DNA of 36,067 nucleotides from a virus (Duplodnaviria > Caudoviricetes): positions 1 to 36,067 of the IMG/VR virus record IMGVR_UViG_3300025358_000001; one strand, given 5' to 3'. Position 1 is the stretch's first letter; the number at the start of each line of letters is the position of its first letter. A program made the position numbers and the translations under genes. This document shows positions 14,390 to 34,885 of this stretch, one piece after another. The notes below the pieces were generated by a model. It was not told the origin of the DNA and did no database searches. It was given only the letters and a program-made list of their open reading frames with translations.

Positions 14390-14598
14390 TCTTGTCCCCT
14401 TGCTCGGATTAGTTCTGCTATTGCTTTAGGACTGCCTTGCCACGGTTCTTCTGCAATCTTTGCACATTCCTCACGTTCTTTTTCTGCTACCAGTTTGGCA
14501 AACTGTTCTAGTTTATCTAGCCACATTAACTCACCTCCAACATAGTCGTAAGGTAAATTTGCTTGATTAGCCATCTGTATGATTTCTTCTTTAGTCAT
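14386..14598 (-). CDS. Hypothetical phage protein
   Basis: MTKEEIIQMA..LEQFAKLVAEKEREECAK..IRARG, a pattern common in small phage ORFs. Confidence 0.7.
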   Translation of the reverse strand: MTKEEIIQMANQANLPYDYVGGELMWLDKLEQFAKLVAEKEREECAKIAEEPWQGSPKAIAELIRARGQE

Positions 14599-15014
14599 TC
14601 TGCCTCCCTAATCATTATTTCTACATAAGGTTCACCATAAACCTTGGTTGCGTGTAAATCTACAATTTGCGTGTCATCATCGTAAACAATTCCATTCATG
14701 GCATCTAAATAGGCTTTGATGATGTTGTCAATGTCTGGCTTCTTAGAAGGCCTTTCAGAGCCAATTAAACAGGCCTCCCTGCGTTTTTTTGAGTACGACT
14801 TAGGCACAGGCATGGAAATGTAAATAAACGCTTCTAAATCGGTTTTAAAAGGTTCTGATGCACCCATCGCACGTTTAGCCTTGTCAACAATGAAATCTTC
14901 ATATTCAAGCGTTGACTTAGGTGTGTAGGTAGAAACAAAATTTCCTCGTCTGGCAAACCTTGGCCTGCCTTTACCTTTGGGTAGCCCTTCAACTTTAAAC
15001 ATGACGATCAGCAT
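14595..15014 (-). CDS. rusA: RusA family Holliday junction resolvase
   Basis: PKGKGRPRF..YTP..KKPDIDNIIKAYLDAMNG..DDTQI catalytic motifs. Confidence 0.92.
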   Translation of the reverse strand: MLIVMFKVEGLPKGKGRPRFARRGNFVSTYTPKSTLEYEDFIVDKAKRAMGASEPFKTDLEAFIYISMPVPKSYSKKRREACLIGSERPSKKPDIDNIIKAYLDAMNGIVYDDDTQIVDLHATKVYGEPYVEIMIREAE

Positions 15015-15165
15015 TGAGTTCCTTAATTCTTTGGGCAATGAGTTTGCCTATTCCATGAAAAGCAGGTTCTTGTTCCAATAGCTTAACTTGTTGACGAACA
15101 TAGTCAAGCCATGCAGGTTTGATGGCTAATTTGGCATAGTGCTCAACAATGAGTTCAATTTTCAT
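14995..15165 (-). CDS. 56-aa hypothetical protein (below ORF-track cutoff)
   Basis: MKIELIVEHYAKLAIKPAWLDYVRQQVKLLEQEPAFHGIGKLIAQRIKELNADRHV; fills the gap between glycosyltransferase and rusA. Confidence 0.55.
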   Translation of the reverse strand: MKIELIVEHYAKLAIKPAWLDYVRQQVKLLEQEPAFHGIGKLIAQRIKELNADRHV

Positions 15166-16024
15166 TTTGGTCTACTAGCTTCATGCCATAATTGTTAATC
15201 CCTTGTGGAATAGGTATGTCTTTTTTTATCAAAGCGTTACGTTTAAATTTTCTGTAGTCAACATGGTGATGCCATCTGTTGAACTTCCAAGTTACTTTTG
15301 CACAGTCAGGATGCAAGTCAGCAAGCATTTTGGACTTAGGCAAAGTACCTTCTTTGGCATAAAACTCCTCTGTATTGCCTCCCTTTAGGGTTTGTGTCTG
15401 GGCTTTTTCTTGGATAAAAGCATTGAACTGGATGGTGCAATGACCATCTTTTAAGACCCTGAGAGACAAATCTGTGTCCTCGTTATACCTACCTCTCCAT
15501 CTGTATGGAATATTGTTCTGAATGAGCAAACAAGAGTAAATGCGAGTATTTCTGATAAAGGGTGGATGAACTTCTTTGGATTGGACAAAAAAGTCATAAT
15601 TAAAGCCAGAAATGTAAACATTCTCGTATCTGTCTACAAAATCTTCTGCAGCTTTAAAAATTGTGCCAGAGCTGACTTTGACCATGAGGTTTCTGTTAAG
15701 CCTTTGAAAAGAGGCAATGTTGTCATCCATGACCCAATGGCGAGCAGCTCCTAGACTGATGCTGTGTTCCCAAGCAAAGTTGCGTGCAGGACCGGGTCCT
15801 CTCGACTTATTGCTTGCTAGCTCATCACAAGTCTCATAAACATCTTGATAGCTTGTAGGCAAAATCAATATCTTGTGTGCAGCAATTACGCTTGCATAGT
15901 CCTGATATTCCTGATTTTCCACAATGATGTAGTAAGGCACTTGCATGGCTTCTAAAGCCTTTGCTGTTAACCTTGTATCAGCTCTACCTTTGGAAACAAT
16001 GTAGATAGGGTATTTAGGATTCAT
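15155..16024 (-). CDS. GT-A fold glycosyltransferase, GREB1/TET-associated (TAGT)-like
   Basis: YPIYIVSKGRA, GPGPARN, HWVMDDNI metal-binding motif, RIYSCLLI, WRGRYNEDTDLSLR, GGNT. Confidence 0.8.
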   Translation of the reverse strand: MNPKYPIYIVSKGRADTRLTAKALEAMQVPYYIIVENQEYQDYASVIAAHKILILPTSYQDVYETCDELASNKSRGPGPARNFAWEHSISLGAARHWVMDDNIASFQRLNRNLMVKVSSGTIFKAAEDFVDRYENVYISGFNYDFFVQSKEVHPPFIRNTRIYSCLLIQNNIPYRWRGRYNEDTDLSLRVLKDGHCTIQFNAFIQEKAQTQTLKGGNTEEFYAKEGTLPKSKMLADLHPDCAKVTWKFNRWHHHVDYRKFKRNALIKKDIPIPQGINNYGMKLVDQNEN

Positions 16025-16289
16025 CTACATACCTCAGATGTGCCCTTAACCTTGGTTCAGCATAAGGAAACCAGATAGTCTTTTGTTTTTCAGTAATCCT
16101 TTGACCCATCAGTTCTTCAAACTTAGCAACATCTTTTGCATTTCTGAATCTGACATTGATAACTCTAAAAGGACTTAAATCATCTTGAACAAACTCAGGC
16201 ATACCAACCCACTCTTTAGTTGCTGAGTCCATCTCGTCAAAAAGAACACCTTGCTCTGCATTCTCTAACATTTCATTCCTTTCAGCCAT
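16014..16289 (-). CDS. Small acidic partner of the glycosyltransferase
   Basis: EWVGMPEFVQ..INVRF..F..LMGQ.IT....IWFP; overlaps the GT start by 11 nt. Confidence 0.65.
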   Translation of the reverse strand: MAERNEMLENAEQGVLFDEMDSATKEWVGMPEFVQDDLSPFRVINVRFRNAKDVAKFEELMGQRITEKQKTIWFPYAEPRLRAHLRYVDES

Positions 16290-16526
16290 AGTTACCCCAA
16301 GGGTGAGTAGCACTCACACCAAGCCCATGCTTTAGCACTAGCTTCCCCATAGGGGTGCGATTTAATCGAATAGTGTCTTGTCTCACCTTGTCCACTATTC
16401 TTCTGTGATACCTCGCACACAGTTCACTAGGGTTATCTTTGGGGTGATTGCAAAGCCCTATGTTTTCTTCCAAGCCATCCATTTAAATGCTCTGCTATCG
16501 TGTGGAGTACGATCTGCAAAAGCAAA

Positions 16527-16677
16527 AACCCCATAATTCACTCTGTGGTCTTGGCTCTTGGCGAGAGCAACAGCAAGGCGATTGAAGTTGTCAAAAGACT
16601 CGCTTGCTATCGAACAAGACCACACAGAAAACTATGGGGTTCTACAACAACTTCATTCACCTAGATGCCACTCTAGA
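16527..16677 (-). ncRNA. C4 antisense RNA-like cloverleaf with upstream complementary (a1/b1-like) sites
   Basis: Nested stems 16527-35/16633-41, 16542-53/16615-28, 16554-58/16564-68 (minus-strand loop CGCCA), 16572-81/16600-08; 9-nt complement 16583-91/16647-55; hairpin 16661-76 (minus-strand loop GUGGCA). Confidence 0.65.
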
Positions 16678-16684
16678 TAAAACA

Positions 16685-16690
16685 ATTATA
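16685..16690 (-). promoter_or_regulatory. -10 box for the structured RNA
   Basis: Perfect TATAAT on the minus strand ~7 nt before the first hairpin; no clear -35. Confidence 0.45.
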
Positions 16691-16696
16691 CACAGA

Positions 16697-16861
16697 TTAT
16701 CTAAAAAGAAACCATTCAGGATGTAAAGATTGCATTTGCCATATTCTTGCTTGTGGTGGAATTTCACCCCATTGAGAAATAGCAGCTTTAGAAATACCCA
16801 ATATCTTGGCTAGTTCTGTAACTGATCCTGCAAACTGTATAGCTTCTTTTTTGGTAATCAT
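16697..16861 (-). CDS. cro: Cro-like HTH regulator (54 aa, below ORF-track cutoff)
   Basis: MITKKEAIQFAGSVTELAKILGISKAAISQWGEIPPQARIWQM..; TATAAT at 16874-16869 suggests a leaderless transcript. Confidence 0.85.
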   Translation of the reverse strand: MITKKEAIQFAGSVTELAKILGISKAAISQWGEIPPQARIWQMQSLHPEWFLFR

Positions 16862-17013
16862 GCTTAACATTATACAAACAATACAAAATTACAACAGTTA
16901 AGTTAACTAAATACAACACTAGGGAAACTACCTAAACATAGACAGTTAAACTAGGTTAACATTCAGTCATGCCGAAGCATAAAGCAAGCGGATATTTTTT
17001 AAAGGACTGTTAA
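16862..17013. promoter_or_regulatory. Divergent early control region with repeated GTTAA boxes
   Basis: Strand switch; ACAGTTAA at 16894 and 16942, GTTAAC at 16902 and 16955, TAGG-N7-CCTA at 16920-16934. Confidence 0.55.
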
Positions 17014-17148
17014 ATGAAAAAACAATACATCATAGATACACAAGACACATTGCAACATTATGAGTTTGCAACTGTTCAACAAGCATTAGATTTTGCTCGT
17101 GAATTACTAAGGGTAAACAGACCTTTTATTATGTTCACAACCAAATGA
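17014..17148 (+). CDS. 44-aa hypothetical early protein
   Basis: AAAGGA RBS; MKKQYIIDTQDTLQHYEFATVQQALDFARELLRVNRPFIMFTTK; ATGA overlap with next. Confidence 0.6.
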   Translation: MKKQYIIDTQDTLQHYEFATVQQALDFARELLRVNRPFIMFTTK

Positions 17149-17255
17149 CAAAACAACAAGCCAACCTTATTCTTGACCAAGTTAAGGTTGGCATTCCACA
17201 CCCAACATATTTAATTAACTTAGCTTTAACAGTAACAGGAGATTTAAAGCCATGA
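17145..17255 (+). CDS. 36-aa hypothetical early protein
   Basis: MTKQQANLILDQVKVGIPHPTYLINLALTVTGDLKP; ATGA overlaps at both ends. Confidence 0.6.
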   Translation: MTKQQANLILDQVKVGIPHPTYLINLALTVTGDLKP

Positions 17256-19114: not shown

Positions 19115-19383
19115 AAAAAGATATCAAAGTAAAAATGCGTACCTATGTTGACAAAAATGGTGAAACAAAAAATTACTGGATGAAAATTGGCACATTGGTG
19201 CAAACAGACAAAGGTGAATCAATAAATATTGAATGTTTCCCAGTAATTGAAGGCGGTTGGAATGGTTGGGCATCTGTTTTTGAAGCCAAAGAAGATTTCG
19301 CACCTAAACCCCAATATCAGGCTAGGCCAAATTTAAGGCAAGAGCCAAGACTTAGCTTAACAGACGAAGACATTCCCTTTTGA
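19111..19383 (+). CDS. Small SSB-like protein
   Basis: Beta-rich N-terminus and acidic DEDIPF C-terminal tail; follows exo/erf. Confidence 0.65.
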   Translation: MKKDIKVKMRTYVDKNGETKNYWMKIGTLVQTDKGESINIECFPVIEGGWNGWASVFEAKEDFAPKPQYQARPNLRQEPRLSLTDEDIPF

Positions 19384-19712
19384 GGTGCAACATGGATTTA
19401 TTTAAAGCAATGAACTTACCTGAGTTTGGAACTTTGCCAAAGTTTTTGGCTAGAAAAGAAGCTCCAGAAACGTCAAAAGAGGCAGCAGAGAAGGTAGATA
19501 CCCAAACCCTTGAAAGAATCGTTTATGAGGTCATTAGAAGCCATCCAGAGGGATGTATATCAGACCAAGTGCTTGCCCAACTCCATAATTTGCCTTATGG
19601 GTCAGTTACAGCTCGTTATGCTGCCTTAAAGCGTAAAAAGTTAATCTATACAACTGACGAAAAAAGGGAAGGCAAAGCTGGTAAGCCTCAGTATGTGATG
19701 AGGGCTGCTTAA
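19380..19712 (+). CDS. Winged-helix DNA-binding protein
   Basis: AR..PETSKEAA..VYEVI..GCISDQV..SVTARYAAL..LIY pattern; start uncertain (ATG 19392 possible). Confidence 0.6.
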   Translation: MRCNMDLFKAMNLPEFGTLPKFLARKEAPETSKEAAEKVDTQTLERIVYEVIRSHPEGCISDQVLAQLHNLPYGSVTARYAALKRKKLIYTTDEKREGKAGKPQYVMRAA

Positions 19713-23219: not shown

Positions 23220-25295
23220 ATGGACGATCTTGAATCAAATGGTCTAATCGAAGAAGCACAGGAGTTCTTGCATCTGTGTACTACAGCAGACATGATGAAT
23301 CGTCAGGAAGCCCTAGAAGACCTTAGATTTAGTGCTGGTGACCAATGGCCTGTTGAAATTCAAAACAGTCGTACGCTTGAATCTAGGCCTTGCCTGACCA
23401 TCAATAAGATAGATGCCTATGTTCGCCAAGTCGTAAACAACATCAGGCAACAAAGACCTAGAATCAAAGTCCATGCTGTAAACAATAACCAAGACATTAA
23501 GATGGCTGACATTGTGCAAGGAATGATTAGGCACATTGAGGTTAACTCAGATGCTGACCAAGCCTATGACACAGCAGTAGACTTTCAGGTCAGGATGGGA
23601 TGGGGATTTATTAGGGTCACACACGATTATGTAAGCCCTGATAGCTTTGACCAAGAAATCTTCATCAAGCCTATTATTAACCCATTTACAGTTTATTTTG
23701 ACCCTAATTCAGTAGCCCCTGATGGTTCTGATGCTGAAAGGGTGCTGATTTCTGAGGTGTTAAGCAAGGAAACATTTAGAAAGATGTACCCTGATGCTGA
23801 CGATGGTGCTCAGTTTAACCTTAGAGGAACTGGTGATACCAACGCAGAATGGGTTACCAAGGAAGATATTCGCATTGCTGAATACTTCTACACAGTACAG
23901 AAGAAAACCAAGTTATTGATGCTTGCTGATGGCACTAAAGTCTATAAAGAAGACTTTAAAGGCAATGCAGAAGACATCATTGACCAACGTGACACCATCA
24001 AAAAAGAAATTAGATGGGCTAAAGTCACAGGTATGCAAGTGCTTGAAGAAGGTGTTTGGGCAGGTAAGCACATTCCCATTGTGCCTGTTTATGGTCAACA
24101 ACTGATTGTTGAGAACAAGCGTAAGAAGTTTGGCATGGTCAGGCAAGCCAAAGACCCACAAAGGATGTACAACTTCTGGCAGACTAGCTTAACTGAGTCT
24201 ATTGCCCTAGCACCAAAACCTAAGTGGTTGATTGCTGAAGGCCAAGACGAGGGCCATGAGACTGAATGGGCACAAGCTAACATCAAGAGTGCTGCAGTTC
24301 TGCGTTACAAGCAAAAAGACATTGAGGGTATGCCAGCTCCTGTGCCTACTCGCATTCAACCAGAAGCTCCTCCTGCTGGAATTATGACTGCTTCTGCCCA
24401 AGTATCCCAAGATATGCAAGCAGTTATTGGCATTGTTGACCCTAACCAGCTACCACAAGGCAATATTTCTGGTAAAGCCTTGAATGGTCAGCAACAACAG
24501 GTTGACATTAGCAATTTCCACTTTTACGACAATTTGACTCGTTCACAACGTCAGATTGGTAAGATTTGCTTGGATTTGATTCCCAAAATATATGATGCTC
24601 AACGCACAATGAGGATTATTGGGGAAGATGGCAAGCCTGATTTGGTTGAAATTAACACCTATGGGGTAGATGAAGAAGGTGTTTATAGGGTTTTAAATGA
24701 CACAACCATTGGTGAGTACGACATTGTGATGGACACAGGTCCGGGGTACAACAGCAAGCGTCAAGAAGCCATTGAAAGCATGATGCCCTTGCTTGCAGCA
24801 GACCCAAGCCTGATGCAGATTGCTGGTGACTTGTTCTTCAGAAACATGGATTTTCATGGTGCTCAGACCATTGCAGACAGATTGGCAGCAGCTAATCCCA
24901 TGTCCAAGATTGATGAGAAATCTAAGATTCCTCCACAAGTTCAGATGCAGTTAGCCATGTCTCAGCAGCAGTTACAGGCAATGCAACAACAAGTTCAGCA
25001 GTTGCAAATGACCATTAAGCAGCGTTCAGACATTGAAAGTGTTAAGCAACAAGCAGAAACTCAGCGTGAATTGATGAGACAGACTGCCAAAGCACACAAT
25101 ACTGAATCCATGCTTGAGGCCAAAGTGCATGACGTTAACATGAGGGCTGTAAGTAGCCAGAACAAGACAGAAATTGAGTCAATTATGGAGTTGTTGTTGC
25201 ATCACATGGATACTGCAAGATTGGAAAAGGAAATTGCAGCTAGAAATGCTGAACAGTACCAGTATGCTAACCAAAGTGTGCAGTCTATACAGTAA
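23220..25295 (+). CDS. Portal protein, P22 gp1-like
   Basis: GDQWP..RPCLTIN..KDPQRMYN..SGKAL..YD..R.MRI.GEDG..G.YDIV..GP.Y.SKRQE; Gln-rich C-terminal barrel-like coiled coil. Confidence 0.92.
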   Translation: MDDLESNGLIEEAQEFLHLCTTADMMNRQEALEDLRFSAGDQWPVEIQNSRTLESRPCLTINKIDAYVRQVVNNIRQQRPRIKVHAVNNNQDIKMADIVQGMIRHIEVNSDADQAYDTAVDFQVRMGWGFIRVTHDYVSPDSFDQEIFIKPIINPFTVYFDPNSVAPDGSDAERVLISEVLSKETFRKMYPDADDGAQFNLRGTGDTNAEWVTKEDIRIAEYFYTVQKKTKLLMLADGTKVYKEDFKGNAEDIIDQRDTIKKEIRWAKVTGMQVLEEGVWAGKHIPIVPVYGQQLIVENKRKKFGMVRQAKDPQRMYNFWQTSLTESIALAPKPKWLIAEGQDEGHETEWAQANIKSAAVLRYKQKDIEGMPAPVPTRIQPEAPPAGIMTASAQVSQDMQAVIGIVDPNQLPQGNISGKALNGQQQQVDISNFHFYDNLTRSQRQIGKICLDLIPKIYDAQRTMRIIGEDGKPDLVEINTYGVDEEGVYRVLNDTTIGEYDIVMDTGPGYNSKRQEAIESMMPLLAADPSLMQIAGDLFFRNMDFHGAQTIADRLAAANPMSKIDEKSKIPPQVQMQLAMSQQQLQAMQQQVQQLQMTIKQRSDIESVKQQAETQRELMRQTAKAHNTESMLEAKVHDVNMRAVSSQNKTEIESIMELLLHHMDTARLEKEIAARNAEQYQYANQSVQSIQ

Positions 25296-25324
25296 TTGAC
25301 ACAGTAATGATTTCGGTCTATATT
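25296..25324 (+). promoter_or_regulatory. Putative sigma70 promoter for scaffold/coat genes
   Basis: TTGACA (25296-301), 17-nt spacer, TATATT (25319-24). Confidence 0.6.
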
Positions 25325-25375
25325 GACCAAAAACCTTACCAGTTAGGTTAACTGGGCAAATCCTTGGATAAAACC

Positions 25376-26248
25376 ATGTCAGACAAAGAAGCAGGACAAG
25401 TCCTGACGAGTGAAAACTCAGCAGATTTTTACGCTAATAAATTAGGTTTAGCTACTGAAACTGAGCCTGTGCAAACAGAGGTGGTTGAGGTTAAGAGTGA
25501 GCCAGAGGCGCAAGATGATGCAAAGCCAGCAGAAGACCCAAAGCCAAATCGACTAGAGAAGCGTTTTACAGAGATTACTAGACAACGTGAAATGGCTCGT
25601 CAGGAAGCTGAACGAGAGCGTACGAGGGCTAGTGAGCTAGAGGCAAGGCTAAAGGAGCTAGAAGCAAAGGTCAACCCTAAACCAGTTGAGCAAACTTCAG
25701 AGCCTAAGCCAGATCAGTTTGCAGATGCGTTTGAGTACGCAAAAGCATTAGCTGAATACTCGACTGAAAAAGCGTTACGAGAGAGAGACAGACAGGAAGA
25801 ATTGCGTAGAACTGAAGCAGAACGTGCTAAGACATTCGAGGCATGGAATCAAAGGCAAGCGCAAATTAAGGCAGAGTTACCTGACTACGATGACATGATT
25901 GCATCTTCAGATGTGGTTGTGTCAGACCAAGTCAGGGATGCGATTTTCGATAGTGAAGTAGGACCAAAAATCCTATATCACTTAGCAGAAAATCCAGACG
26001 TTGCTGAAAAACTTTCTAAGATGACTGCTCTTGGTGCTCTAAGAGAAATTGGTAAGTTGGAAGCTCGATTTGAGCAACCAGCACCAAAGACTGAGGTGAA
26101 ATCTGTTGTTAGATCAAACGCACCCAAGCCTATCAGTCCACTTAGATCATCTAGTGCTGCTGTGGATACTCCAATAGACTCTAATGGTGAGTTTACTGGT
26201 ACTCCAGCACAATGGCGAGAGATGAGAAAAGCAGGAAAGATTAGGTAA
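25376..26248 (+). CDS. Capsid scaffolding protein
   Basis: Charged coiled coil, KRFTEIT, GPKILYHLAENP, EIGKLEARF, APKPISP; between portal and coat. Confidence 0.85.
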   Translation: MSDKEAGQVLTSENSADFYANKLGLATETEPVQTEVVEVKSEPEAQDDAKPAEDPKPNRLEKRFTEITRQREMARQEAERERTRASELEARLKELEAKVNPKPVEQTSEPKPDQFADAFEYAKALAEYSTEKALRERDRQEELRRTEAERAKTFEAWNQRQAQIKAELPDYDDMIASSDVVVSDQVRDAIFDSEVGPKILYHLAENPDVAEKLSKMTALGALREIGKLEARFEQPAPKTEVKSVVRSNAPKPISPLRSSSAAVDTPIDSNGEFTGTPAQWREMRKAGKIR

Positions 26249-26277
26249 AAACTTTTTAACTTTTTAAAGGAAATCAA

Positions 26278-27531
26278 ATGAGTAATAATCTCTTAACGAT
26301 ATCCAAAATCACTAACGAAGCGCTAATGGTTTTGGAAAATGAGTTGACCTTCACTTCTGAAGTTGACAGAAACTATGATGACCAGTTCGCTGTTGTCGGT
26401 GCAAAGATTGGTAACACAGTCAATGTCCGCAGACCCGGACGCTTTATTGGTACGACCGGTCCGGCCCTTAATGTCGAAGACTTTAATGAAACTTCAGTTC
26501 CTGTAACCTTAAGTACTCAATTTCACGTTGATACGCAGTTTACCACGGCTGATTTAGCACTTTCGTTGGACATGTTCTCTGATCGTGTGTTGAAGCCTGC
26601 GGTTGCCGCCATTGCTAACAAGATTGATCGTGATGGCTTAGTTATGGCTAAGAACAACACAGCAAATATTGTTGGTACTGCTGGAACACCTCCAACTGGT
26701 CTGATTACATTCTTGACTGCTGGTGCTTACCTTGACTCTGAAGGTGCTCCTCGTGATGGTCGTAGGTCAGTAACCATTGAGCCATTTACTTCTGCAACTA
26801 TTGTTGATAGCTTGAAAGGCCTCTTTGTGCCCCAAGAAGCTATTGGCGAACAGTATCGCAAAGGCCTCATGGGTCGCGACAGCGCTGGGGTTAATTGGAA
26901 AATGGACCAAAACGTTGTCTCCCAACAGTTTGGTGCTTGGACAGGTGGAACTGCTGGTTCTATTACTGTTAATGGCTCAAACCAAGGTCTTGCATCAGGA
27001 TGGGCACAAACATCTACGATCAACATCACAGCTACTGCTGCTGGTGCATTGAATCAAGGTGATGTGATTACTTTTGCAGGTGTGTACGCTGTTAACCCAC
27101 AAAATCGTCAAGCCTATGGCAATAACAAGTTGAGAAACTTTGTTGTTACATCTGCTGTCACTTTGTCTAATGGCAATACATCAGTAACAGTTAGCCCTGC
27201 ATTGATTTATGGTGGTCAGTTCCAAAACGTTACAGCATCTCCCACAAGTGGTGTTGCAGTTACTCCTTTCTCAATTGGAGTTTCTGGTTCTGGTACATAC
27301 TCACCACAGAACATTATGATGCACAGAAATGCGTTCACCTTGGCGGTGGCGGACCTCGAATTGCCTGAAGGTGTCCATTTTGCTGGTCGTGCAAGCGACA
27401 AAGAAATTGGCCTCTCAATGCGTGTGGTCAGGCAATACACGATTAACAACGATAGCATTCCAACTCGTTTGGATGTGCTCTACGGATGGGCGCCACTCTA
27501 CCCTGAGTTGGCTTGCCGTATTGCAGCTTAA
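26278..27531 (+). CDS. Major capsid protein, P22 coat (gp5)-like
   Basis: AKIGNTVNVRRP, P..AAIANKID, GDVITFAGV, RLDVLYG..LYPELACR; strong AAGGA RBS. Confidence 0.93.
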   Translation: MSNNLLTISKITNEALMVLENELTFTSEVDRNYDDQFAVVGAKIGNTVNVRRPGRFIGTTGPALNVEDFNETSVPVTLSTQFHVDTQFTTADLALSLDMFSDRVLKPAVAAIANKIDRDGLVMAKNNTANIVGTAGTPPTGLITFLTAGAYLDSEGAPRDGRRSVTIEPFTSATIVDSLKGLFVPQEAIGEQYRKGLMGRDSAGVNWKMDQNVVSQQFGAWTGGTAGSITVNGSNQGLASGWAQTSTINITATAAGALNQGDVITFAGVYAVNPQNRQAYGNNKLRNFVVTSAVTLSNGNTSVTVSPALIYGGQFQNVTASPTSGVAVTPFSIGVSGSGTYSPQNIMMHRNAFTLAVADLELPEGVHFAGRASDKEIGLSMRVVRQYTINNDSIPTRLDVLYGWAPLYPELACRIAA

Positions 27532-27556
27532 TTAACAATTTAAGGAGTATTTAATT

Positions 27557-27997
27557 ATGAGTAATCCCGGACCAGCAACCACAGTCAGCAATCACCCACA
27601 GAACTTGGCTACAAACCAAGCCTTGCGTTTGATTGCTTCAGCTCAATCAGTTAACTTGGCCTACGCTGGTGACACAGCAATGGCTCTTGTCGATGTGAGC
27701 AAATTCGTACCTGTTAGCGTAATCATTACCAATGGCCTTAACTCTAGTGGTTCTACAACCACTATTGCTACTGCTACTGTTGGTGTTTACACAAACACAG
27801 GAGCAACTGGAACAACAGTATTGACTACTGCTGCTTTGACAAGCAACACAGGTGGCCCTTATGTGACCATTTCTGCTGCAACAAATCCGAACACAGCTAT
27901 ATCTAGCTTCAGCAATTTATATGTAAATGTTGGAACTACGATTGCAGCTACTTGTGACGTATTTGTTTATGGCTACGACCTCACATTTTTACCTTAA
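27557..27997 (+). CDS. Putative capsid decoration/structural protein
   Basis: Thr-rich beta protein right after the coat gene; AAGGAG RBS; DVFVYG C-terminus. Confidence 0.6.
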   Translation: MSNPGPATTVSNHPQNLATNQALRLIASAQSVNLAYAGDTAMALVDVSKFVPVSVIITNGLNSSGSTTTIATATVGVYTNTGATGTTVLTTAALTSNTGGPYVTISAATNPNTAISSFSNLYVNVGTTIAATCDVFVYGYDLTFLP

Positions 27998-28018
27998 TTT
28001 GTGAGTAAATAAGAAGAA

Positions 28019-28057
28019 GGCCATCCTCAAAAGGGATGGCTTTTTTCGCTTTTCAGA
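28019..28057 (+). terminator. Rho-independent terminator
   Basis: GGCCATCCT-caaa-AGGGATGGC stem followed by TTTTTT. Confidence 0.8.
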
Positions 28058-28081
28058 TACAATAATCCAAAAGGAGTTTTT

Positions 28082-28408
28082 ATGTCATTACAAACTACGA
28101 TCCTAAGAGGAAATATCCTCAATTCCTTCCTTGTTTACCCAACATTGACACCTGCAGCAGTCTCTGGTTCACAAGCAACGCAAACATTTACAATCCAAGG
28201 CCTTTTGCCTAATGACTTTGTAAATATTTCCTTGCAAGGTGCTCAGACTACTGGTGTTGGTATTGCTAATGCTTGGGTATCTGCTGCTAATACTTTGTCA
28301 ATTCAATTTACAAATAGCACAGGTTCTTCTGCAACTCCTGCATCTGGTGTTTATACATTGGGTGTGGATCGTTTGGAAGGCACAATCCTTCCTACTAATG
28401 CAGTTTAA
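28082..28408 (+). CDS. Putative virion structural protein
   Basis: AAGGAG RBS; Thr/Ser-rich beta-sandwich-like ORF. Confidence 0.6.
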   Translation: MSLQTTILRGNILNSFLVYPTLTPAAVSGSQATQTFTIQGLLPNDFVNISLQGAQTTGVGIANAWVSAANTLSIQFTNSTGSSATPASGVYTLGVDRLEGTILPTNAV

Positions 28409-28410
28409 TC

Positions 28411-28761
28411 ATGGCAGGTTCAACAGTTCAACGTAATGCTGGTCAAACAACTGCGTTATCAGTTACAAGCACGAGCCATGCCTCGACTTTGATTGATGAC
28501 ACAACGAATGACCAGATCAACTACGCATCTTTCTTGAACACAGGAGCAAGCCCCATTGCTGTGAAGTTTTCTAGCTTCTCACCATGCCCTGCTGCTGTGT
28601 TTCCTGTAGATGGTTCAACACTTGGCGATTTCGTTCTTCCTGCAGGAATGTCATCTCCATTGATTCTAGCAACTCCTACAACTCCCTTTTACATGACTGC
28701 TATCAGTAACTCAGGTACTGCTGGCATCTTGTATGTGACACCTGTAGGTGACCAAAGTTGA
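28411..28761 (+). CDS. Putative virion structural protein
   Basis: Beta-rich ORF ending LYVTPVG; in the structural operon. Confidence 0.6.
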   Translation: MAGSTVQRNAGQTTALSVTSTSHASTLIDDTTNDQINYASFLNTGASPIAVKFSSFSPCPAAVFPVDGSTLGDFVLPAGMSSPLILATPTTPFYMTAISNSGTAGILYVTPVGDQS

Positions 28762-28765
28762 TTAT

Positions 28766-28792
28766 GGGGGGTGAAATTCCCCCCTTTTTTTT
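28766..28792 (+). terminator. Rho-independent terminator
   Basis: GGGGGG-tgaaatt-CCCCCC followed by TTTTTTTT. Confidence 0.8.
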
Positions 28793-28802
28793 AGGGTAGA
28801 TT

Positions 28803-30512
28803 ATGAGCAACAGTATTGCCAATACAGTAACAACGAACATATTGCCTGTACAGGCTTTATATGACCCAACAACTTTGGCCTTTATTACTTTTATTGGCCC
28901 TGCTGGTTTGCCTTTTACAAGTGCTGCAGGTGGTGTATCTAGCGTAAACGTTTCAGGTGGAACAACAGGATTGACCACAACTGGTGGCCCTATTGTGTCT
29001 AGTGGAACAATTACCATTGGTGGTACGCTTTCAGTCTCAAATGGTGGAACTGGGGCTACTACTAACTCAAGTGCTCTTAACAACTTATTGCCTACACAAA
29101 CAGGCAACTCAGGAAAATATCTAACCACAGATGGCACTAACGCATCTTGGGCCACAACTGGTGGTGGTTTAACCATTGCATTAGACACAACCACTAATGC
29201 AACAAGGTATTTGGCCTTTACAAGTGCAACAAGTGGAACAATCACAACAGAAAACGTCAGTTCAGGCTTGACGTTTAACCCATCTAGCTCTACATTGACT
29301 GCCACGACTTTTGTGGGTGCATTAACAGGAAATGCTTCAACTGCTACTTTGGCAACATCATCAACTAACCTTGCTGGTGGAGCTGGTGGCTCATTGCCTT
29401 ACCAAACAGGTTCAGGTGCAACAACCTTTTTGGCAGCAGGTAGCAATGGTCAATACCTAACTTTGAGTGGTGGTGTACCAACTTGGGCTAATTTGACCTA
29501 TGTTAGTTCATTTAGTGGTGGAACTACTGGACTAACCCCAAATACTGCCACTACAGGGGCTGTAACGCTTGCAGGGACGCTTGCAGTAGCAAATGGTGGC
29601 ACAGGCGTTACAACAAGCTCTGGTGCGTCTAGCGTTGTTTTAAGGGATTCTAACGTCAATGTAACTGCTAACGACTTTTATGAAGGTTTTACAAACGTAG
29701 CTGCTGCAGGAACTACCGTTACATTAACTGCTGCATCAACACCTAACTTTGTGATAACTGGCTCTGGTGGTCAGACATATAAGTTACCTGATGCAACAAC
29801 GCTACCTACAGGTGCTATATACACTTTTAACAACAATCAAACTTCAGGTGCAATTACTGTGCAAAACAGTTCAGGCACATCGGTTGTTTCTGTGCCATCA
29901 GGTGGTTTTGTTGAAATCATTCTTTTGACCAATTCTGTGGCTGCAGGAACATGGGATTACCACTTTCAAGCCCCATCAAATGTATCTTGGTCAACCAATA
30001 CATTTAGCTATTCAGGTTCAATCACCAATGCAACATGGAATGGTGTGTCAATTGGTGCAATTTATGGTGGAACTGGGCAAACTAGCTACACGACTGGTGA
30101 CATTTTGTACGCAAGTGCTACAAATACCTTGTCTAAGTTAGCTGCAGGAACAAATGGCTATGTGTTAACTTTGTCAGGTGGTGTTCCTACATGGTCAGCG
30201 ACAACTGCTGCAACATCAATTTCTGATGACACAAGCACCAATTCAACTCGATATATCAACTTTACAAGTGCAACTTCAGGCACTTTGAGTACGATTTACA
30301 CAAGTTCTACTAAGTTACAGTACAACCCAAGCACAGGTTTGTTTAGCACACCTAGTTTAGCCATTACAGGTACTTTGAGTGCTAATGGAAGCACAGGAAC
30401 TGCTGGTTATGTGCTAACTTCTAATGGTTCATCTGCTGCTTATTGGGCAGCACCATCAACAGGTCTAACCCAAGCCAAAGCAATGGCTTTAACCTTTACA
30501 TTTGGATTTTAA
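28803..30512 (+). CDS. Modular fibre protein (head or tail fibre shaft)
   Basis: Repeated SGGTTGLT, L.V.NGGTG, G..GYVLT..G..W and D.TN.TRY..FTSATSGT modules. Confidence 0.75.
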   Translation: MSNSIANTVTTNILPVQALYDPTTLAFITFIGPAGLPFTSAAGGVSSVNVSGGTTGLTTTGGPIVSSGTITIGGTLSVSNGGTGATTNSSALNNLLPTQTGNSGKYLTTDGTNASWATTGGGLTIALDTTTNATRYLAFTSATSGTITTENVSSGLTFNPSSSTLTATTFVGALTGNASTATLATSSTNLAGGAGGSLPYQTGSGATTFLAAGSNGQYLTLSGGVPTWANLTYVSSFSGGTTGLTPNTATTGAVTLAGTLAVANGGTGVTTSSGASSVVLRDSNVNVTANDFYEGFTNVAAAGTTVTLTAASTPNFVITGSGGQTYKLPDATTLPTGAIYTFNNNQTSGAITVQNSSGTSVVSVPSGGFVEIILLTNSVAAGTWDYHFQAPSNVSWSTNTFSYSGSITNATWNGVSIGAIYGGTGQTSYTTGDILYASATNTLSKLAAGTNGYVLTLSGGVPTWSATTAATSISDDTSTNSTRYINFTSATSGTLSTIYTSSTKLQYNPSTGLFSTPSLAITGTLSANGSTGTAGYVLTSNGSSAAYWAAPSTGLTQAKAMALTFTFGF

Positions 30513-30521
30513 GGAGCATTT

Positions 30522-30932
30522 ATGGCAGTCCCAAATATAGCAGCGTTAACCTCAATCGTAGGCTCAACTGCCTATATCAGTCCCGGCACTTCTGCCACAA
30601 CTTCTTGGACATATTCCACAGGAACTTCTGGCACAACTGCTCTGACAGGATTAACACCTGCAACCAACTATGTGAACAAAGTTGAAACAATTATTGCATC
30701 TAACTACACAAGTAGTGCTGCAACTGTTACTTTGGCTATTTCTGACAATGCAACATACGCATCAGGAACTGCTCACTACATTGCTTATCAAATCAGCGTT
30801 CCTCCAAATGCTTCTTTGGTGATTAACGACAAGACAACACCTATTTATGTGACTGAAAATCAGTCATTGGGTGTGATTGCTGGAACTGCAAGTGCTATTT
30901 CTGTTGTTGCTTGTTTAGAAACCATAGGTTAA
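30522..30932 (+). CDS. Small virion protein, probable fibre-tip adaptor
   Basis: MAVPNI..KVETIIASN..IAYQISVPPNASL..IYVTE; AAGGAG RBS; between fibre and Gly-rich genes. Confidence 0.6.
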   Translation: MAVPNIAALTSIVGSTAYISPGTSATTSWTYSTGTSGTTALTGLTPATNYVNKVETIIASNYTSSAATVTLAISDNATYASGTAHYIAYQISVPPNASLVINDKTTPIYVTENQSLGVIAGTASAISVVACLETIG

Positions 30933-30935
30933 ACC

Positions 30936-31832
30936 ATGACCTTGAGATACACAGGTGGGATTGTTTCTGACCAATTTACTGGATTGAACTATCCTGTTCA
31001 AACGGTAGAGTATCTTGTTGTCGCTGGAGGTGGTGGGGGTGGTAACGGTAATGTAAATGGAGGCGGTGCTGGTGGTGGTGGAGCTGGCGGACTTCTTACT
31101 GCAACAGGTTATTCAATAACTCTTGGCTCATCAATCACAGTTACTATTGGTGCAGGTGGATCTGGCGGTATATATGGTGGTGCATCTCCAAGCACAGGAT
31201 CTAATTCTGTATTTGGATCAATAACTGCTACAGGCGGTGGAACAGGTGCTTCTTATAATTCATCAACTTATACTGCTGGATCGTCTGGTGGATCAGGTGG
31301 TGGTGGCGGTGGTAATTCACCTTATACTGGAGCAGGATCAGGCACATCTGGTCAAGGCAATAGTGGTGGTACTGGTTCAAATAGTACAGGAGCTGGAGGG
31401 GGTGGTGGTGGATCTGGCTCAGTTGGGGTTGCATCTTCTGTAGGAACAAACGCTGGTGTTGCAGGAACAGGAACTGTATCTTCTATTACAGGATCACCCA
31501 TTCAATATGCAGGTGGTGGTGGTGGTGGAAGTTGGAATGGAAATACCTACATAGCATTGGGTTCTGGAGGTGGTGGTAATGGTGGAGCAGGAACTACACC
31601 TTACAATGGAACTACTGGATTAGCCAATACAGGTGGTGGTGGTGGTGGAAGTGGTGCAGGAACAACTACAGGTGCTTCAGGAAATGGTGGGGCAGGTGGT
31701 TCAGGAATCGTAGTTATCAGATACCCTGCTTATCTATCCCAAGCCACATCAACAACAGGTTCACCCACAACGTATATTGCAGGGCCATATCGCATATATA
31801 TCTTCAACGCATCAGGAACGATTACGTTTTAA
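30936..31832 (+). CDS. Glycine-rich domain protein 1 (putative adhesin)
   Basis: VEYLVVAGGGGGG..GGGGAGG..YAGGGGG..ANTGGGGGG..GGSGIVVIRY..F..SGTITF. Confidence 0.8.
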   Translation: MTLRYTGGIVSDQFTGLNYPVQTVEYLVVAGGGGGGNGNVNGGGAGGGGAGGLLTATGYSITLGSSITVTIGAGGSGGIYGGASPSTGSNSVFGSITATGGGTGASYNSSTYTAGSSGGSGGGGGGNSPYTGAGSGTSGQGNSGGTGSNSTGAGGGGGGSGSVGVASSVGTNAGVAGTGTVSSITGSPIQYAGGGGGGSWNGNTYIALGSGGGGNGGAGTTPYNGTTGLANTGGGGGGSGAGTTTGASGNGGAGGSGIVVIRYPAYLSQATSTTGSPTTYIAGPYRIYIFNASGTITF

Positions 31833-31835
31833 ATT

Positions 31836-32672
31836 ATGCCTAATGGAATCTTTTCTCTTAAACAACAGTTACAAGGCTTAATTCAAAAGGCTTGGACAGG
31901 CTCTATTGCGACTAACTATGTTGAGTATTTAGTTGTTGCTGGTGGTGGGGGTGGGGGTTCAACAAGTCCGGGTGGTGGTGGAGGCGCAGGTGGATTGCTT
32001 CAAGGCATTGTAAATGTTCCTAATGGATCATCAATTACTGTTACTGTAGGTTCTGGTGGTACTGGTTCAGGCTCATCAGGAACTAATAGTATTTTTGGAA
32101 ATATAAGTGCAACAGGTGGTGGATATTCTGCCACTTCAGGTAATGTTGCATCTGGTGGTTCAGGAGGCGGTGCGGCAGGTAGTGGAAGCGTTAATTATTT
32201 TGGTGGACAAGGAACTTTTGGCCAAGGAAACGCTGGTGGAGCAAATTTTCCACAAGGCGGTGTTGGCCCTACAGGAGGTGGCGGAGGTGCAGGAACAGTT
32301 GGTTTAACTGGAGTTTCTAATGTTTCTGGTAATGGTGGTGCAGGTATTGCTAGTTCAATATCAGGCACTGTTACTGCTTATGCTGGTGGTGGTGGCGGTG
32401 GAATTATTAGTGGAACTGCTGGCTCTGGTGGTGCAGGTGGTGGAGGTGCAGGAGCAGTAGGTTCATCTAATGGAACAAACGGTACTGCTAATACTGGTGG
32501 TGGAGGAGGAGGTTGTCAAAGTGGAACGCCTGGTCAAGGAGGCTCAGGCATCGTCATTATTCGCTACCCAAACACATTTAAAGACGCAGTATCAGTAACC
32601 AATGGTACTAAGACAAGTATCACAGGATTTACTGTGTATACGTTTACATCTTCTGGCTCAATAACATTCTAG
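31836..32672 (+). CDS. Glycine-rich domain protein 2 (putative adhesin)
   Basis: Same conserved framework; N-terminus GIFSLKQQ..AWT; probable start ATG 31836. Confidence 0.8.
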   Translation: MPNGIFSLKQQLQGLIQKAWTGSIATNYVEYLVVAGGGGGGSTSPGGGGGAGGLLQGIVNVPNGSSITVTVGSGGTGSGSSGTNSIFGNISATGGGYSATSGNVASGGSGGGAAGSGSVNYFGGQGTFGQGNAGGANFPQGGVGPTGGGGGAGTVGLTGVSNVSGNGGAGIASSISGTVTAYAGGGGGGIISGTAGSGGAGGGGAGAVGSSNGTNGTANTGGGGGGCQSGTPGQGGSGIVIIRYPNTFKDAVSVTNGTKTSITGFTVYTFTSSGSITF

Positions 32673-32679
32673 GACTAAC

Positions 32680-33615
32680 ATGAGTGATCGTATTGGTGGC
32701 CTAATCACAGGAACATTAAACCCTTTGACATCTTTGCCTACTGCAACTGTAGAGTATTTGGTTGTGGCTGGTGGTGGTGGGGGAGCTGGTGGAGCAAGTG
32801 GCGGAGGAGGCGCTGGTGGTCTTCTTACTGCTACGGGATATGCAGTTACTTCTGGCTCAAGTATTACCGTTACTGTTGGAGCTGGTGGGTCTTCAGGTTC
32901 AACATACAACGTATCTGGATCAAATGGAAATAATTCTATTTTTGGTTCTATTACTGCAACTGCTGGCGGTGGCGGCGGTGCGTATGGATCAAATGGATCA
33001 AATGGTGGTTCTGGTGGGGGTGCTTATCAAAGCACTACAGCAGGAACAGGAACATCGGGTCAAGGATATGCTGGTGCTGTTGGAGTAACTAGTTCAGATG
33101 CAACCACTGGAGGAGGCGGGGGCGGTTCTGGTTCTGCGGGTACTTCTGGTGTTACCAATGTACAAGCTGGTCAAGGCGGAACTGGAACTGTTTCAAGTAT
33201 TACAGGATCAAAACAATTTTATGCTGGTGGAGGTGGAGGTGGTGGCTATGCTGGATCATCAAACACATCGGCTGGCGGTAATGGTGGTGTAGGTGGCGGG
33301 GGTGCAGGCGCACCAGGAAACGGCAATGCTGGAACCCCTCCAACTGCTTTAGGAGGGGCACCAAATGGTGGAAACGCTTCACCAAATGGTACGGGTGGCT
33401 CAGGTGGCGCAAATACTGGTGGAGGTGGTGGAGCTGGGGCTTATTCTGCTTATGCGGGATTTACGGCAGGTGGTAATGGTGGCTCAGGAATAGTAATTAT
33501 TCGTTACCCAGCCAACACAGCACCCCCAGCATCAGTTACAGGTGGCCCACAGGTTTACTATAATTCGGGGTATCAGATTTACGTTTTCACAAGCAGTGGA
33601 ACAATCACATTTTAA
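32680..33615 (+). CDS. Glycine-rich domain protein 3 (putative adhesin)
   Basis: Same framework; most similar to protein 1. Confidence 0.8.
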   Translation: MSDRIGGLITGTLNPLTSLPTATVEYLVVAGGGGGAGGASGGGGAGGLLTATGYAVTSGSSITVTVGAGGSSGSTYNVSGSNGNNSIFGSITATAGGGGGAYGSNGSNGGSGGGAYQSTTAGTGTSGQGYAGAVGVTSSDATTGGGGGGSGSAGTSGVTNVQAGQGGTGTVSSITGSKQFYAGGGGGGGYAGSSNTSAGGNGGVGGGGAGAPGNGNAGTPPTALGGAPNGGNASPNGTGGSGGANTGGGGGAGAYSAYAGFTAGGNGGSGIVIIRYPANTAPPASVTGGPQVYYNSGYQIYVFTSSGTITF

Positions 33616-33624
33616 GGAGTTAAC

Positions 33625-33975
33625 ATGGCACACTTTGCTCACATCACAAATGGAATTGTTGATAACGTGATCGTTATTGATGCTGAAACACTAGCACTTG
33701 GACATTGGGGTGACCCATCAGAATGGGTTCAAACCAGTTACAACACGCATGGAAATGTTCATGCTTTGGGTGGCACACCATTACACAAAAATTACGCAGG
33801 AATTGGTTATTCTTGGGATGGTACTGGCTTTGCTGCTCCTCAACCTTATCCATCATGGACTAAAAACCAAACAACATATTTGTGGGAAGCACCTACACCT
33901 ATGCCTACTGATGGCAAGCATTACAATTGGGATGAGGCAACCAAGGCTTGGGTTGAAGTAACCCTAGGAGCTTAA
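33625..33975 (+). CDS. Small aromatic-rich companion of Gly-rich proteins
   Basis: MAHFA..V.NVIV..WVQTSYN..KNYAGIGY..PQPYPSW..WEAPTPMP..Y.WDE; AAGGAG RBS. Confidence 0.75.
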   Translation: MAHFAHITNGIVDNVIVIDAETLALGHWGDPSEWVQTSYNTHGNVHALGGTPLHKNYAGIGYSWDGTGFAAPQPYPSWTKNQTTYLWEAPTPMPTDGKHYNWDEATKAWVEVTLGA

Positions 33976-33976
33976 C

Positions 33977-34885
33977 ATGGCTCAATTTAGTGGCATTTGG
34001 TCACTATCCCAAGTTAGCCAAGCTGTTAAAGCACAGAATTGGACTGGTATATCTCCACCTATTATTGAATACCTTTTGGTCGCTGGAGGAGGCGGTGGAG
34101 GTGGTGTTGCAAATTCTTCAGGTTCTGCTGGAGGTGGAGGTGCAGGTGGCGTTATAGCTGGTCTTACATCAATAACTCAAGGAACACAATGTTGGATAAC
34201 AGTTGGTTCATCTGGATCTGGTGGTCCAACAAGTAATACAGCAGGAGGAAATGGTGGAAATTCTGTTTTATTAGCTAGTTCATCTGGGTCATCAACTGGT
34301 AATTTTGTTGCTTTTGGCGGAGGAGGTGGCGGAACATTAAATGGTGGTGGTTTGTCAGGTGGTTCTGGCGGTGGAGGAGGTTTTGCAACAGGTACTGCAC
34401 AAAACGGTGGATCAGGCACATCGGGGCAAGGAAATTCTGGTAGTGCTGGAATAGGATCAGGAACTAATCCATATCAGGGTGGCGGAGGTGGAGGAGCTGG
34501 AACAGCTGGTTTAAGTTATCAAACTAGCAATGGTGGCTCTGGAATAGCATCTTCTATTAATGGATCAGTTGTAGTTTACGCTGGTGGTGGAGGTGGCGGC
34601 AGCAACGCAATTGCAGGAACTGGAGGAGCAGGAGGTGGTGGCAATGGAGGCACATTTAATTCAAATGGTTCTTCTGGATCATCAAATACTGGTAGTGGAG
34701 GCGGTGGCGGAGGAAATAGTAGTAGTGGTGGAAATTCAGGCGGTAATGGTGGCTCAGGTATTGTCATAATCCGTTATCCATCAAGCTATAAACTAGCCAC
34801 AAGTACCACAGGCTCACCTACACAAACAACTGCCAATGGGTACATTATTTATACGTTTACAAGTTCAGGGAGTATCACATTTTGA
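33977..34885 (+). CDS. Glycine-rich domain protein 4 (putative adhesin)
   Basis: Same framework; N-terminus SGIWSLSQ..NWT resembles protein 2. Confidence 0.8.
   Translation: MAQFSGIWSLSQVSQAVKAQNWTGISPPIIEYLLVAGGGGGGGVANSSGSAGGGGAGGVIAGLTSITQGTQCWITVGSSGSGGPTSNTAGGNGGNSVLLASSSGSSTGNFVAFGGGGGGTLNGGGLSGGSGGGGGFATGTAQNGGSGTSGQGNSGSAGIGSGTNPYQGGGGGGAGTAGLSYQTSNGGSGIASSINGSVVVYAGGGGGGSNAIAGTGGAGGGGNGGTFNSNGSSGSSNTGSGGGGGGNSSSGGNSGGNGGSGIVIIRYPSSYKLATSTTGSPTQTTANGYIIYTFTSSGSITF

What the first reader, a model, noticed from the sequence alone, without database searches (positions are those of the whole stretch)
16290..16520. No recognisable replication genes; a hairpin-dense segment sits where the initiator should be
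Seen: the circular genome has no ORF I recognise as initiator, helicase, loader, primase or polymerase, and every ORF over ~200 aa is otherwise assigned. Downstream of cro and the C4-like RNA, where lambdoid phages place O/P, lie ~220 nt packed with stems: 16303-17, 16345-55, 16358-68, 16368-75/16393-400, 16404-17, ~16428-60, palindrome CATTTAAATG 16480-89, and 16497-513. Only a doubtful 66-aa ORF covers it. Inference: a protein-free origin, for example a transcript-primed R-loop origin analogous to ColE1 and controlled by the adjacent antisense-type RNA, perhaps with Erf/Exo/RusA recombination-dependent replication. This is speculative but would be a new phage replication strategy.
Basis: partly seen in the sequence, partly recalled or inferred. 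Interest (0 to 1): 0.8.

Follow-up and report, generated by a model that had tools for sequence, protein, structure and literature searches.

The report
Knotted RNA replaces phage replication initiator
This complete freshwater phage genome has no detectable replication-initiator gene, and in the slot where near-identical relatives carry one it has a conserved 230-base element that is predicted to fold as a heavily knotted RNA and likely starts DNA copying by priming it with RNA.

Summary
The gap is real. The circular genome has no initiator hit, and a relative with 94-96% identical flanks carries a DUF1376/O-like initiator at exactly 16268-16696. The window holds instead a c4-like RNA plus a ~230-nt element (16514-16287, minus strand). 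The element's folding energy alone is not above chance (z about -1.4). However, it belongs to a large uncatalogued family (several hundred contigs) with 48 modelled pairs, 41 showing two-sided changes, including several pseudoknots. Five of the eight first-reader stems are supported; three are not. Among 73 cro loci, 46 have an initiator, 11 this RNA, 11 a second unrelated RNA, and none has both intact. Best reading (about 0.6): a transcript-primed, R-loop origin run by host enzymes and throttled by the c4-like attenuator. It works like ColE1 but shows no homology to it. Against: four genomes carry the RNA elsewhere beside a protein initiator, and no expression or origin activity is shown. RNA-based prophage origins are already published for mycobacteriophages. 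The scan noted a look-alike phage leader RNA on other DNA before (e1-6316322).

The parts
16268..16696 (-). Swappable replication-slot cassette; relative L007 has a 236-aa DUF1376/O-like initiator here
   Evidence: blastn window vs L007: 95.6% over 14593-16267 and 94.1% over 16697-16934, nothing between; L007 protein hits primosomal/O-like PHROGs
16697..16870 (-). cro-like HTH gene upstream of the cassette
   Evidence: PF14549 P22_Cro, E 1.5e-12
16685..16690 (-). Probable -10 promoter hexamer (TATAAT) for the cassette transcript; no good -35 (inferred)
   Evidence: Invariant in 11 of 11 rows of alignment A2; not listed by the sigma-70 scan
16517..16680 (-). c4-like rod-shaped RNA ending in a U-tract; likely self-targeting attenuator / immunity module
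   Evidence: z -7.96. TTTT within 45 nt upstream of the element in 62 of 66 members vs 19% background. In the short allele type a 7-nt or longer loop complement is found in 28 of 35 cognate vs 17 of 1150 non-cognate pairs.
16287..16514 (-). Class I knotted RNA (candidate primer RNA / origin)
   Evidence: Model R1 scores the window 189 bits (in the training set). 48 pairs, 93% of cells paired, 41 pairs with two-sided change, 0/500 shuffles on covariation score.
16460..16513 (-). 5' domain: P1, pseudoknot PK1 (16505-03:16470-72), P2 (16490-86:16474-79), tertiary pairs T1 (16484,16481,16480:16460-62)
   Evidence: T1 100% paired, 2 of 3 pairs covary
16405..16459 (-). P3/P4 with invariant CACC loop (16446-43) and P5 (16427-22:16405-11) with bulged A
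   Evidence: P5 100% paired, 6 of 6 pairs covary
16339..16418 (-). Pseudoknot PK2 (16418-13:16355-60), P6 (16400-393:16368-75) with invariant GGUG loop (16387-84), P7 and tertiary pair 16351:16339
   Evidence: PK2 96.6% paired, 6 of 6 covary. P6 is 67% paired in the alignment, probably because of register shifts.
16287..16306 (-). 3' motif YCACCCTWG-N4-AMCTATG followed by A-rich bases; complementary to the P6 loop; candidate RNA-DNA transition site (inferred)
   Evidence: Loop R vs 3' Y Watson-Crick in 61 of 61 parsed clusters, loop W vs 3' W in 58 of 61. The ATG opens fewer than 25 codons in 46 of 64. Single copy in the window.
16282..16482 (-). 66-aa ORF, judged spurious
   Evidence: No family hit; frame open in 8 of 73 members

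Best explanation
The segment is a conserved element predicted to fold as a multi-pseudoknot RNA, it occupies the place of the O-type initiator gene, and it likely serves as the phage's replication origin by RNA priming. Proposed steps: (1, inferred) host RNA polymerase starts at the -10 element after cro; (2, inferred) the c4-like RNA attenuates read-through at its U-tract, setting dose and superinfection immunity; (3, shown by covariation) the read-through sequence has a defined knotted fold whose GGUGR/CWA loop is complementary to its own 3' YCACC/TWG motif, while a second loop repeats CACC; (4, inferred) these loops clamp the displaced and template DNA strands at the 3' motif, giving a persistent R-loop; (5, inferred) host RNase H and Pol I make and extend a primer near AMCTATG-A-rich, and host restart proteins load the helicase; in most relatives a stand-alone initiator C-terminal-domain protein would help, but the window lacks it.
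For: Exact swap with an initiator in a 94-96% identical relative. Of 73 cro-anchored loci: 46 initiator only, 11 class I, 11 class II, 5 neither, 0 with both intact; two initiator loci keep a 3' remnant. phrog_21472 initiator in 2 of 51 class I records vs 7 of 7 controls; one of the two is two genomes joined. No initiator hit in the flanks of 118 metagenome members, many of them short. One copy per genome in 23 genomes examined, apart from a terminal repeat. All 15 small window ORFs tested have orthologues in initiator-bearing kin. A headless initiator C-terminal domain occurs in 37 of 52 class I records (5 were selected on it) and strongly in 0 of 9 controls. G-U cells 220 vs A-C 27 point to the transcribed strand. 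In the capsid-context members the next gene has its own TTGACA/TATAAT promoter just after the 3' motif. Two other unrelated elements fill the same slot and repeat their 3'-end sequence internally; in class II the repeat covaries by identity, 6.0 of 7 vs 3.8 of 7. ColE1 hybrid formation needs an RNA stretch matching the template strand (PMC4412123, passages).
Against: No origin activity, transcript or R-loop is shown. Four non-chimeric class I records out of 51 carry a likely protein initiator: G025 (DUF1376 plus DnaB) and G012, G046, G047 (HTH_36, O-like at E 2e-7 to 2e-10); in all four the RNA lies outside the cro slot. G005 and G014 encode their own helicase and primase next to it. No homology to ColE1 or to the RedRock parABS region. 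The loop-3' pairing is equally compatible with a purely intramolecular switch, and the 3' CACC can also pair locally (5-6 of 6 bases in 60 of 72). The fourfold-site skew comparison gave no support. Many loci are near-identical contigs, so counts overstate independent events.
Confidence: 0.62

Rival explanations
1. Split initiator: the RNA replaces only the origin-recognition domain of O. It binds its own DNA on both strands and recruits a protein (the stand-alone C-terminal domain, or a host factor) that loads helicase and primase; it is not itself the primer.
For: Headless C-terminal domain in 37 of 52 class I records, absent from all four records with a full initiator; 71 of 80 such genes lie near class I or II and the other 9 follow a third element.
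Against: The window and 14 other class I records lack that domain. The domain has no Pfam or PDB match, so its role rests on PHROG annotation.
Confidence: 0.13
2. Cis-regulatory leader (antiterminator or switch) for downstream genes; the DNA is copied by recombination-dependent restart using Erf, YqaJ exonuclease and RusA.
For: It lies at the head of an operon behind an attenuator. It has alternative pairings at its 3' end. It coexists with initiators in four records. Erf, YqaJ and RusA are present.
Against: Initiator-bearing kin have the same downstream and recombination genes without the RNA. Downstream genes vary freely. The capsid gene has its own promoter after the element. It leaves the missing initiator unexplained.
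Confidence: 0.13
3. The structure acts as single-stranded DNA (a primase or PriA assembly signal) exposed by transcription, not as RNA.
For: Covariation cannot tell RNA from ssDNA; PMC5737381 raises the same caveat for plasmid motifs (passages). The element sits in the origin slot.
Against: Frequent G-U pairs, including a C-G/U-G pair in 73 of 73, and several 1-3 bp tertiary contacts are typical of RNA folds (general knowledge). A promoter-like element and attenuator precede it.
Confidence: 0.08
4. Artefact or defective genome: a deletion, a misassembly, or an unrecognised small initiator.
For: Profile searches can miss remote folds; no structure search of the window's small ORFs was run.
Against: Identical arrangement in contigs L001 and L003. 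Contigs of run X5 tile the region with no other letters in the listed pieces. Dozens of near-complete relatives share the pattern. The small ORFs, including 19380-19712, occur in initiator-bearing kin.
Confidence: 0.04

Closest known systems
ColE1 RNA II primer origin (NC_001371; PMC4412123 passages)
   Same: No initiator protein; upstream promoter; proposed persistent hybrid helped by an internal RNA stretch matching the 3' region; both end in CTATG followed by A-rich bases
   Different: No profile or covariance-model match; about 230 nt, multi-pseudoknot; control appears to be c4-like attenuation, and no RNA I or Rop was identified; found in phages
RNA-based prophage origins of parABS cluster A mycobacteriophages (PMC7157519; abstract, passages, Discussion read)
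   Same: Phage; a non-coding transcribed region stands in for a RepA gene; both types occur among close relatives
   Different: Those serve lysogeny only (ori deletions grow lytically, and RedRock has Pol1 annotated). Here there is no parABS or polymerase hit in the window, and the RNA replaces the only initiator. No match to RedRock 24000-32000.
MRB plasmid family (PMC3035462, abstract) and the ARRPOF / PAGEV / GEBRO motifs (PMC5737381, passages)
   Same: Rep-less replicons or origin-associated structured motifs of 223-349 nt
   Different: Plasmids of Vibrionaceae, Fusobacterium or Streptococcus; no Rfam family matched the window or 14 related loci
P1 c4 / P4 CI antisense RNAs (Rfam RF01695 listed in PMC2864571; mechanism recalled)
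   Same: Upstream module with allele-specific loop complementarity and a U-tract
   Different: No Rfam match; applies to the upstream module only, not to the element
Lambdoid O / DUF1376 (YdaU) initiator module
   Same: Same genomic slot after cro in kin; no phage helicase in either type
   Different: The gene is absent; many relatives keep only a headless C-terminal domain

Membership tests
ColE1-type replicon | Sequence or structure homology to RNA II | tested here: not met
   nhmmer no hit; CM best 5.9 bits with filters off; plasmid blastn only short chance hits
ColE1-type replicon | No initiator protein required or encoded | tested here: met
   No initiator detected in the window; requirement itself not testable
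ColE1-type replicon | Antisense RNA I overlapping the primer 5' end | tested here: inconclusive
   No plus-strand promoter found over 16520-16290 by the consensus scan; free reassortment of upstream alleles argues for self-targeting
ColE1-type replicon | Persistent hybrid, RNase H cleavage, Pol I dependence | not testable with these tools
   Needs bench work
RNA-based parABS prophage origin (mycobacteriophage) | parABS next to the non-coding RNA | tested here: not met
   No ParA/ParB hit among 63 window ORFs
RNA-based parABS prophage origin (mycobacteriophage) | Homology to the ori RNA region | tested here: not met
   RedRock 24000-32000, best 3.5 bits; only one phage tested
Any Rfam 15 family (ARRPOF, PAGEV, C4, Polynucleobacter-1, group I/II introns, known ribozymes) | Covariance-model match | tested here: not met
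   0 at gathering in the window; only weak unrelated hits at E<=10 and E<=1 in 14 related loci
c4/CI antisense immunity RNA (upstream module) | Allele-specific complementarity between loop and target | tested here: met
   28 of 35 vs 17 of 1150 for the short allele type; 25 members not parsed, 13 of rod type (the window's type) not scored
c4/CI antisense immunity RNA (upstream module) | Processing to a stable small RNA that confers immunity (recalled) | not testable with these tools
   Needs expression data
Lambdoid O/P replication module | O-type initiator gene after cro | tested here: not met

The most novel reading that the evidence does not exclude
The RNA is a protein-free initiator: two loops grip both DNA strands of its own 3' site, in the manner of a guide, and the knotted core either cuts itself to leave the primer end or docks a headless initiator domain. 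At least three unrelated RNA folds have independently replaced the O protein as the sole origin of a large group of integrase-less freshwater phages.
Probability: 0.2. Interest if true: 0.93.

Novelty: new variant of a known kind. Interest (0 to 1): 0.8.

Why it matters
If right, it explains how many uncultured 32-41 kb phages with no replication genes copy their DNA. It shows an RNA and a protein initiator as interchangeable cassettes in near-identical genomes. It adds a compact, richly pseudoknotted RNA (and two more classes) for structure and catalysis work. A 430-bp protein-free replicon with allele-specific control could also be a cloning tool for betaproteobacteria; the host is suggested only by one MAG contig.

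Tried and rejected
Folding energy of the segment alone: not above chance. Homology to ColE1, suggested by short recalled word resemblances: rejected. Rfam: nothing. GenBank phage collection: no hit for the window segment or class II, and only partial hits to two uncultured spring phages for other alleles. GTDB genomes: one 1.6-kb Betaproteobacteria MAG contig (the pattern covers only part of the spacing range). 66-aa ORF and ORF 19380-19712 as initiators: rejected. Expression: no RNA holder listed; two runs labelled RNA-Seq are flagged probably DNA and held only relatives' pieces, so no evidence either way. Fourfold-site GC skew by orientation: inconclusive (element co-oriented -0.19 n=16, opposed -0.09 n=6). 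Extended -10 motif upstream: not enriched (27 of 66 vs 36% background). C-terminal domain fold: model pLDDT 77, no Foldseek, PDB-sequence or Pfam match; the wider structural search did not run. Rows dropped: 17 of 209 pattern loci scored as non-members; G018, G055 and G064 removed as non-members or fragments, so their DnaB hits do not count; G022 is two genomes joined. tRNA 3'-end binding by GGUG considered and set aside because the base after it covaries with the element's own 3' motif. Literature searches that found no description of this family. The large supplementary files 1, 2 and 4 of PMC10690425 were not searched and could hold pieces of it.

Full report
Setting. The window is a complete circular phage record (127-nt terminal repeat; 100% complete) with P22-like portal and coat, Erf, YqaJ exonuclease, RusA and a cro-like gene. 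Runs that hold it are labelled freshwater metagenome. None of 63 ORFs scanned matches an initiator, helicase, primase or polymerase, and genome-wide searches with five initiator or helicase profiles were blank. A tyrosine integrase passed the cut-off in 1 of 55 records searched, an unrelated provirus.

The slot. A search with Cro gave 73 loci. Many with 96-100% identical Cro carry a 236-260 aa gene right behind it that matches primosomal and O-like PHROGs. Relative L007 is 95.6% and 94.1% identical on either side of window 16268-16696 and has the initiator in between. The same RNA arrangement as the window is seen in L001 and L003, and contigs of run X5 tile the region without other letters in the listed pieces, so this is not a misassembly. 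All 15 small window ORFs tested, including 19380-19712, have orthologues in initiator-bearing kin, so no private protein obviously fills the role.

The element. The cassette has two modules that reassort. Upstream is a c4-like RNA ending in a U-tract (z -7.96). Downstream is the segment flagged, which on its own folds no better than shuffles. A 22-base 3' motif found about 410 plus 89 stretches in IMG/VR; 192 of 209 fetched loci are family members, in 81 clusters at 88% identity including non-members. A stricter pattern found about 270 metagenome stretches, 118 of 120 fetched being members, and one GTDB contig from a Betaproteobacteria MAG. A mutual-information scan gave a structure that I then counted on 73 sequences: 48 pairs, 93% of cells paired, 41 pairs with two-sided changes, covariation score 0.695 against 0.207 shuffled and at most 0.154 when slid. 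That alignment was fitted to the nested helices but not to the pseudoknots; on the unfitted MAFFT alignment the figures were 96% and 37 of 44. The shuffle control ignores relatedness, and the pairs were chosen on the same data. The fold has PK1, PK2, tertiary contacts T1 and T2 and a long-range loop-to-3' contact (coordinates). G-U cells outnumber A-C cells 220 to 27, pointing to the minus strand. The base after the invariant GGUG is Watson-Crick complementary to the base before the 3' CACC in 61 of 61 parsed clusters (3 of 64 not parsed), and the CWA/TWG pair in 58 of 61. The conserved terminal ATG is not a common start codon, and the 66-aa frame is open in 8 of 73.

Exclusion with initiators. 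Of the 73 cro loci, 46 have an initiator N-terminal domain, 11 this RNA (class I), 11 an unrelated RNA (class II) and 5 neither; two initiator loci retain only the 3' remnant of class I. These loci are redundant. In whole records, the phrog_21472 initiator occurs in 2 of 51 class I records and 7 of 7 controls; one of the two, G022, is two genomes joined. Cluster representatives of proteins of about 147 aa or more from 22 class I genomes (221 of 351 candidates, plus the C-terminal-domain representative) showed one DnaB-like helicase and one DUF1376 cluster (G025, G022), headless initiator domains and no intact polymerase or primase elsewhere. A stand-alone protein matching only the C-terminal part of initiators is in 37 of 52 class I records, five of them selected on it, and strongly in none of 9 controls; the window lacks it. 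Of 80 loci with that gene, 44 carry class I, 27 class II and 9 a third element. In class II an internal stretch repeats the 3' end and covaries by identity (6.0 vs 3.8 of 7).

Evidence against. G025 has the full cassette downstream of a DUF1376 initiator and DnaB, and G012, G046 and G047 have it between scaffold and capsid genes while encoding an HTH_36 O-like protein. G005 and G014 have it near a helicase and primase. One class II record has a phrog_21472 hit and another an HTH_36 hit. These may be dual-origin phages, but they show that the RNA is not strictly exclusive. No expression evidence was obtained, and the skew comparison was inconclusive.

Mechanism. Shown: absence of a detectable initiator, the swap, the conserved fold and its self-complementarity. 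Inferred: transcription, attenuation by the c4-like module (cognate loop complement in 28 of 35 short-type alleles), R-loop formation at the 3' motif, and priming by host RNase H and Pol I. The model borrows from ColE1, where an RNA stretch pairing with the template strand is needed for the persistent hybrid (PMC4412123, passages). I put it at 0.62, a split RNA-protein initiator at 0.13, a regulatory leader with recombination-driven replication at 0.13, an ssDNA signal at 0.08 and an artefact at 0.04.

Comparison and novelty. It works like ColE1, MRB plasmids (PMC3035462, abstract) and the RNA-based prophage origins of mycobacteriophages (PMC7157519, abstract, passages and Discussion), but is a member of none by the tests run. 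ARRPOF and PAGEV are similar-sized origin-associated motifs (PMC5737381, passages). Eight searches found no description of the family; passages of PMC10690425, PMC2864571 and 10.64898/2026.09.22.753630 did not mention it, but three supplementary files of the first were not searched, and subscription papers are outside the library. The c4/CI mechanism is recalled. Verdict: a real, new RNA family and a new variant of RNA-based origins; interest 0.8.

Noticed in passing
L006, L008, L060, L443-L562 (about 180 viral stretches): Class II: an unrelated ~230-nt structured element in the same slot, with a covarying direct repeat of its 3' end
   Followed up: partly
L422, L425, L426, L428, L430, L436, L437, L439, L442, upstream of the C-terminal-domain gene: Class III: a third ~330-nt element behind the c4-like RNA, with AACTAGCATA repeated near its 3' end; few variants, structure not tested
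   Followed up: no
L074:2760-3113 and relatives: Stand-alone ~120-aa protein matching only the C-terminal part of phage initiators; tied to the RNA elements; no Pfam or PDB match
   Followed up: partly
L020:3971-4078, L024: 3' remnant of class I left downstream of a DUF1376 initiator, a trace of cassette exchange
   Followed up: partly
window 16686-16694: TTATACACA fits the DnaA-box consensus (recalled) but overlaps the -10 hexamer and is not kept in all relatives
   Followed up: no
window 16870-17250: Divergent control region has cro but no cI-like repressor hit, and the genome has no integrase; immunity may rest on the c4-like RNA
   Followed up: partly
window 15155-16313: TET-associated glycosyltransferase (PF20691) and partner gene form a swappable slot replaced by methyltransferases in kin
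   Followed up: no
L141, L111, L145, L127, L135, L150, downstream of the element: A separate strong sigma-70 promoter and an apparently structured ~130-nt leader precede the major capsid gene
   Followed up: no
L007, L010, L052, L062, L067, 100 nt after cro: Initiator-bearing kin have their own conserved ~100-nt leader; PMC10690425 lists a candidate RNA upstream of DUF1376 genes (DNAVirus_187) that may be it
   Followed up: no
G022 (L266): 67-kb IMG/VR record is two related phage genomes joined, one with an initiator and one with the RNA
   Followed up: yes
window 30936-34885: Four tandem paralogous glycine-rich genes (phrog_2295, PF21722)
   Followed up: no
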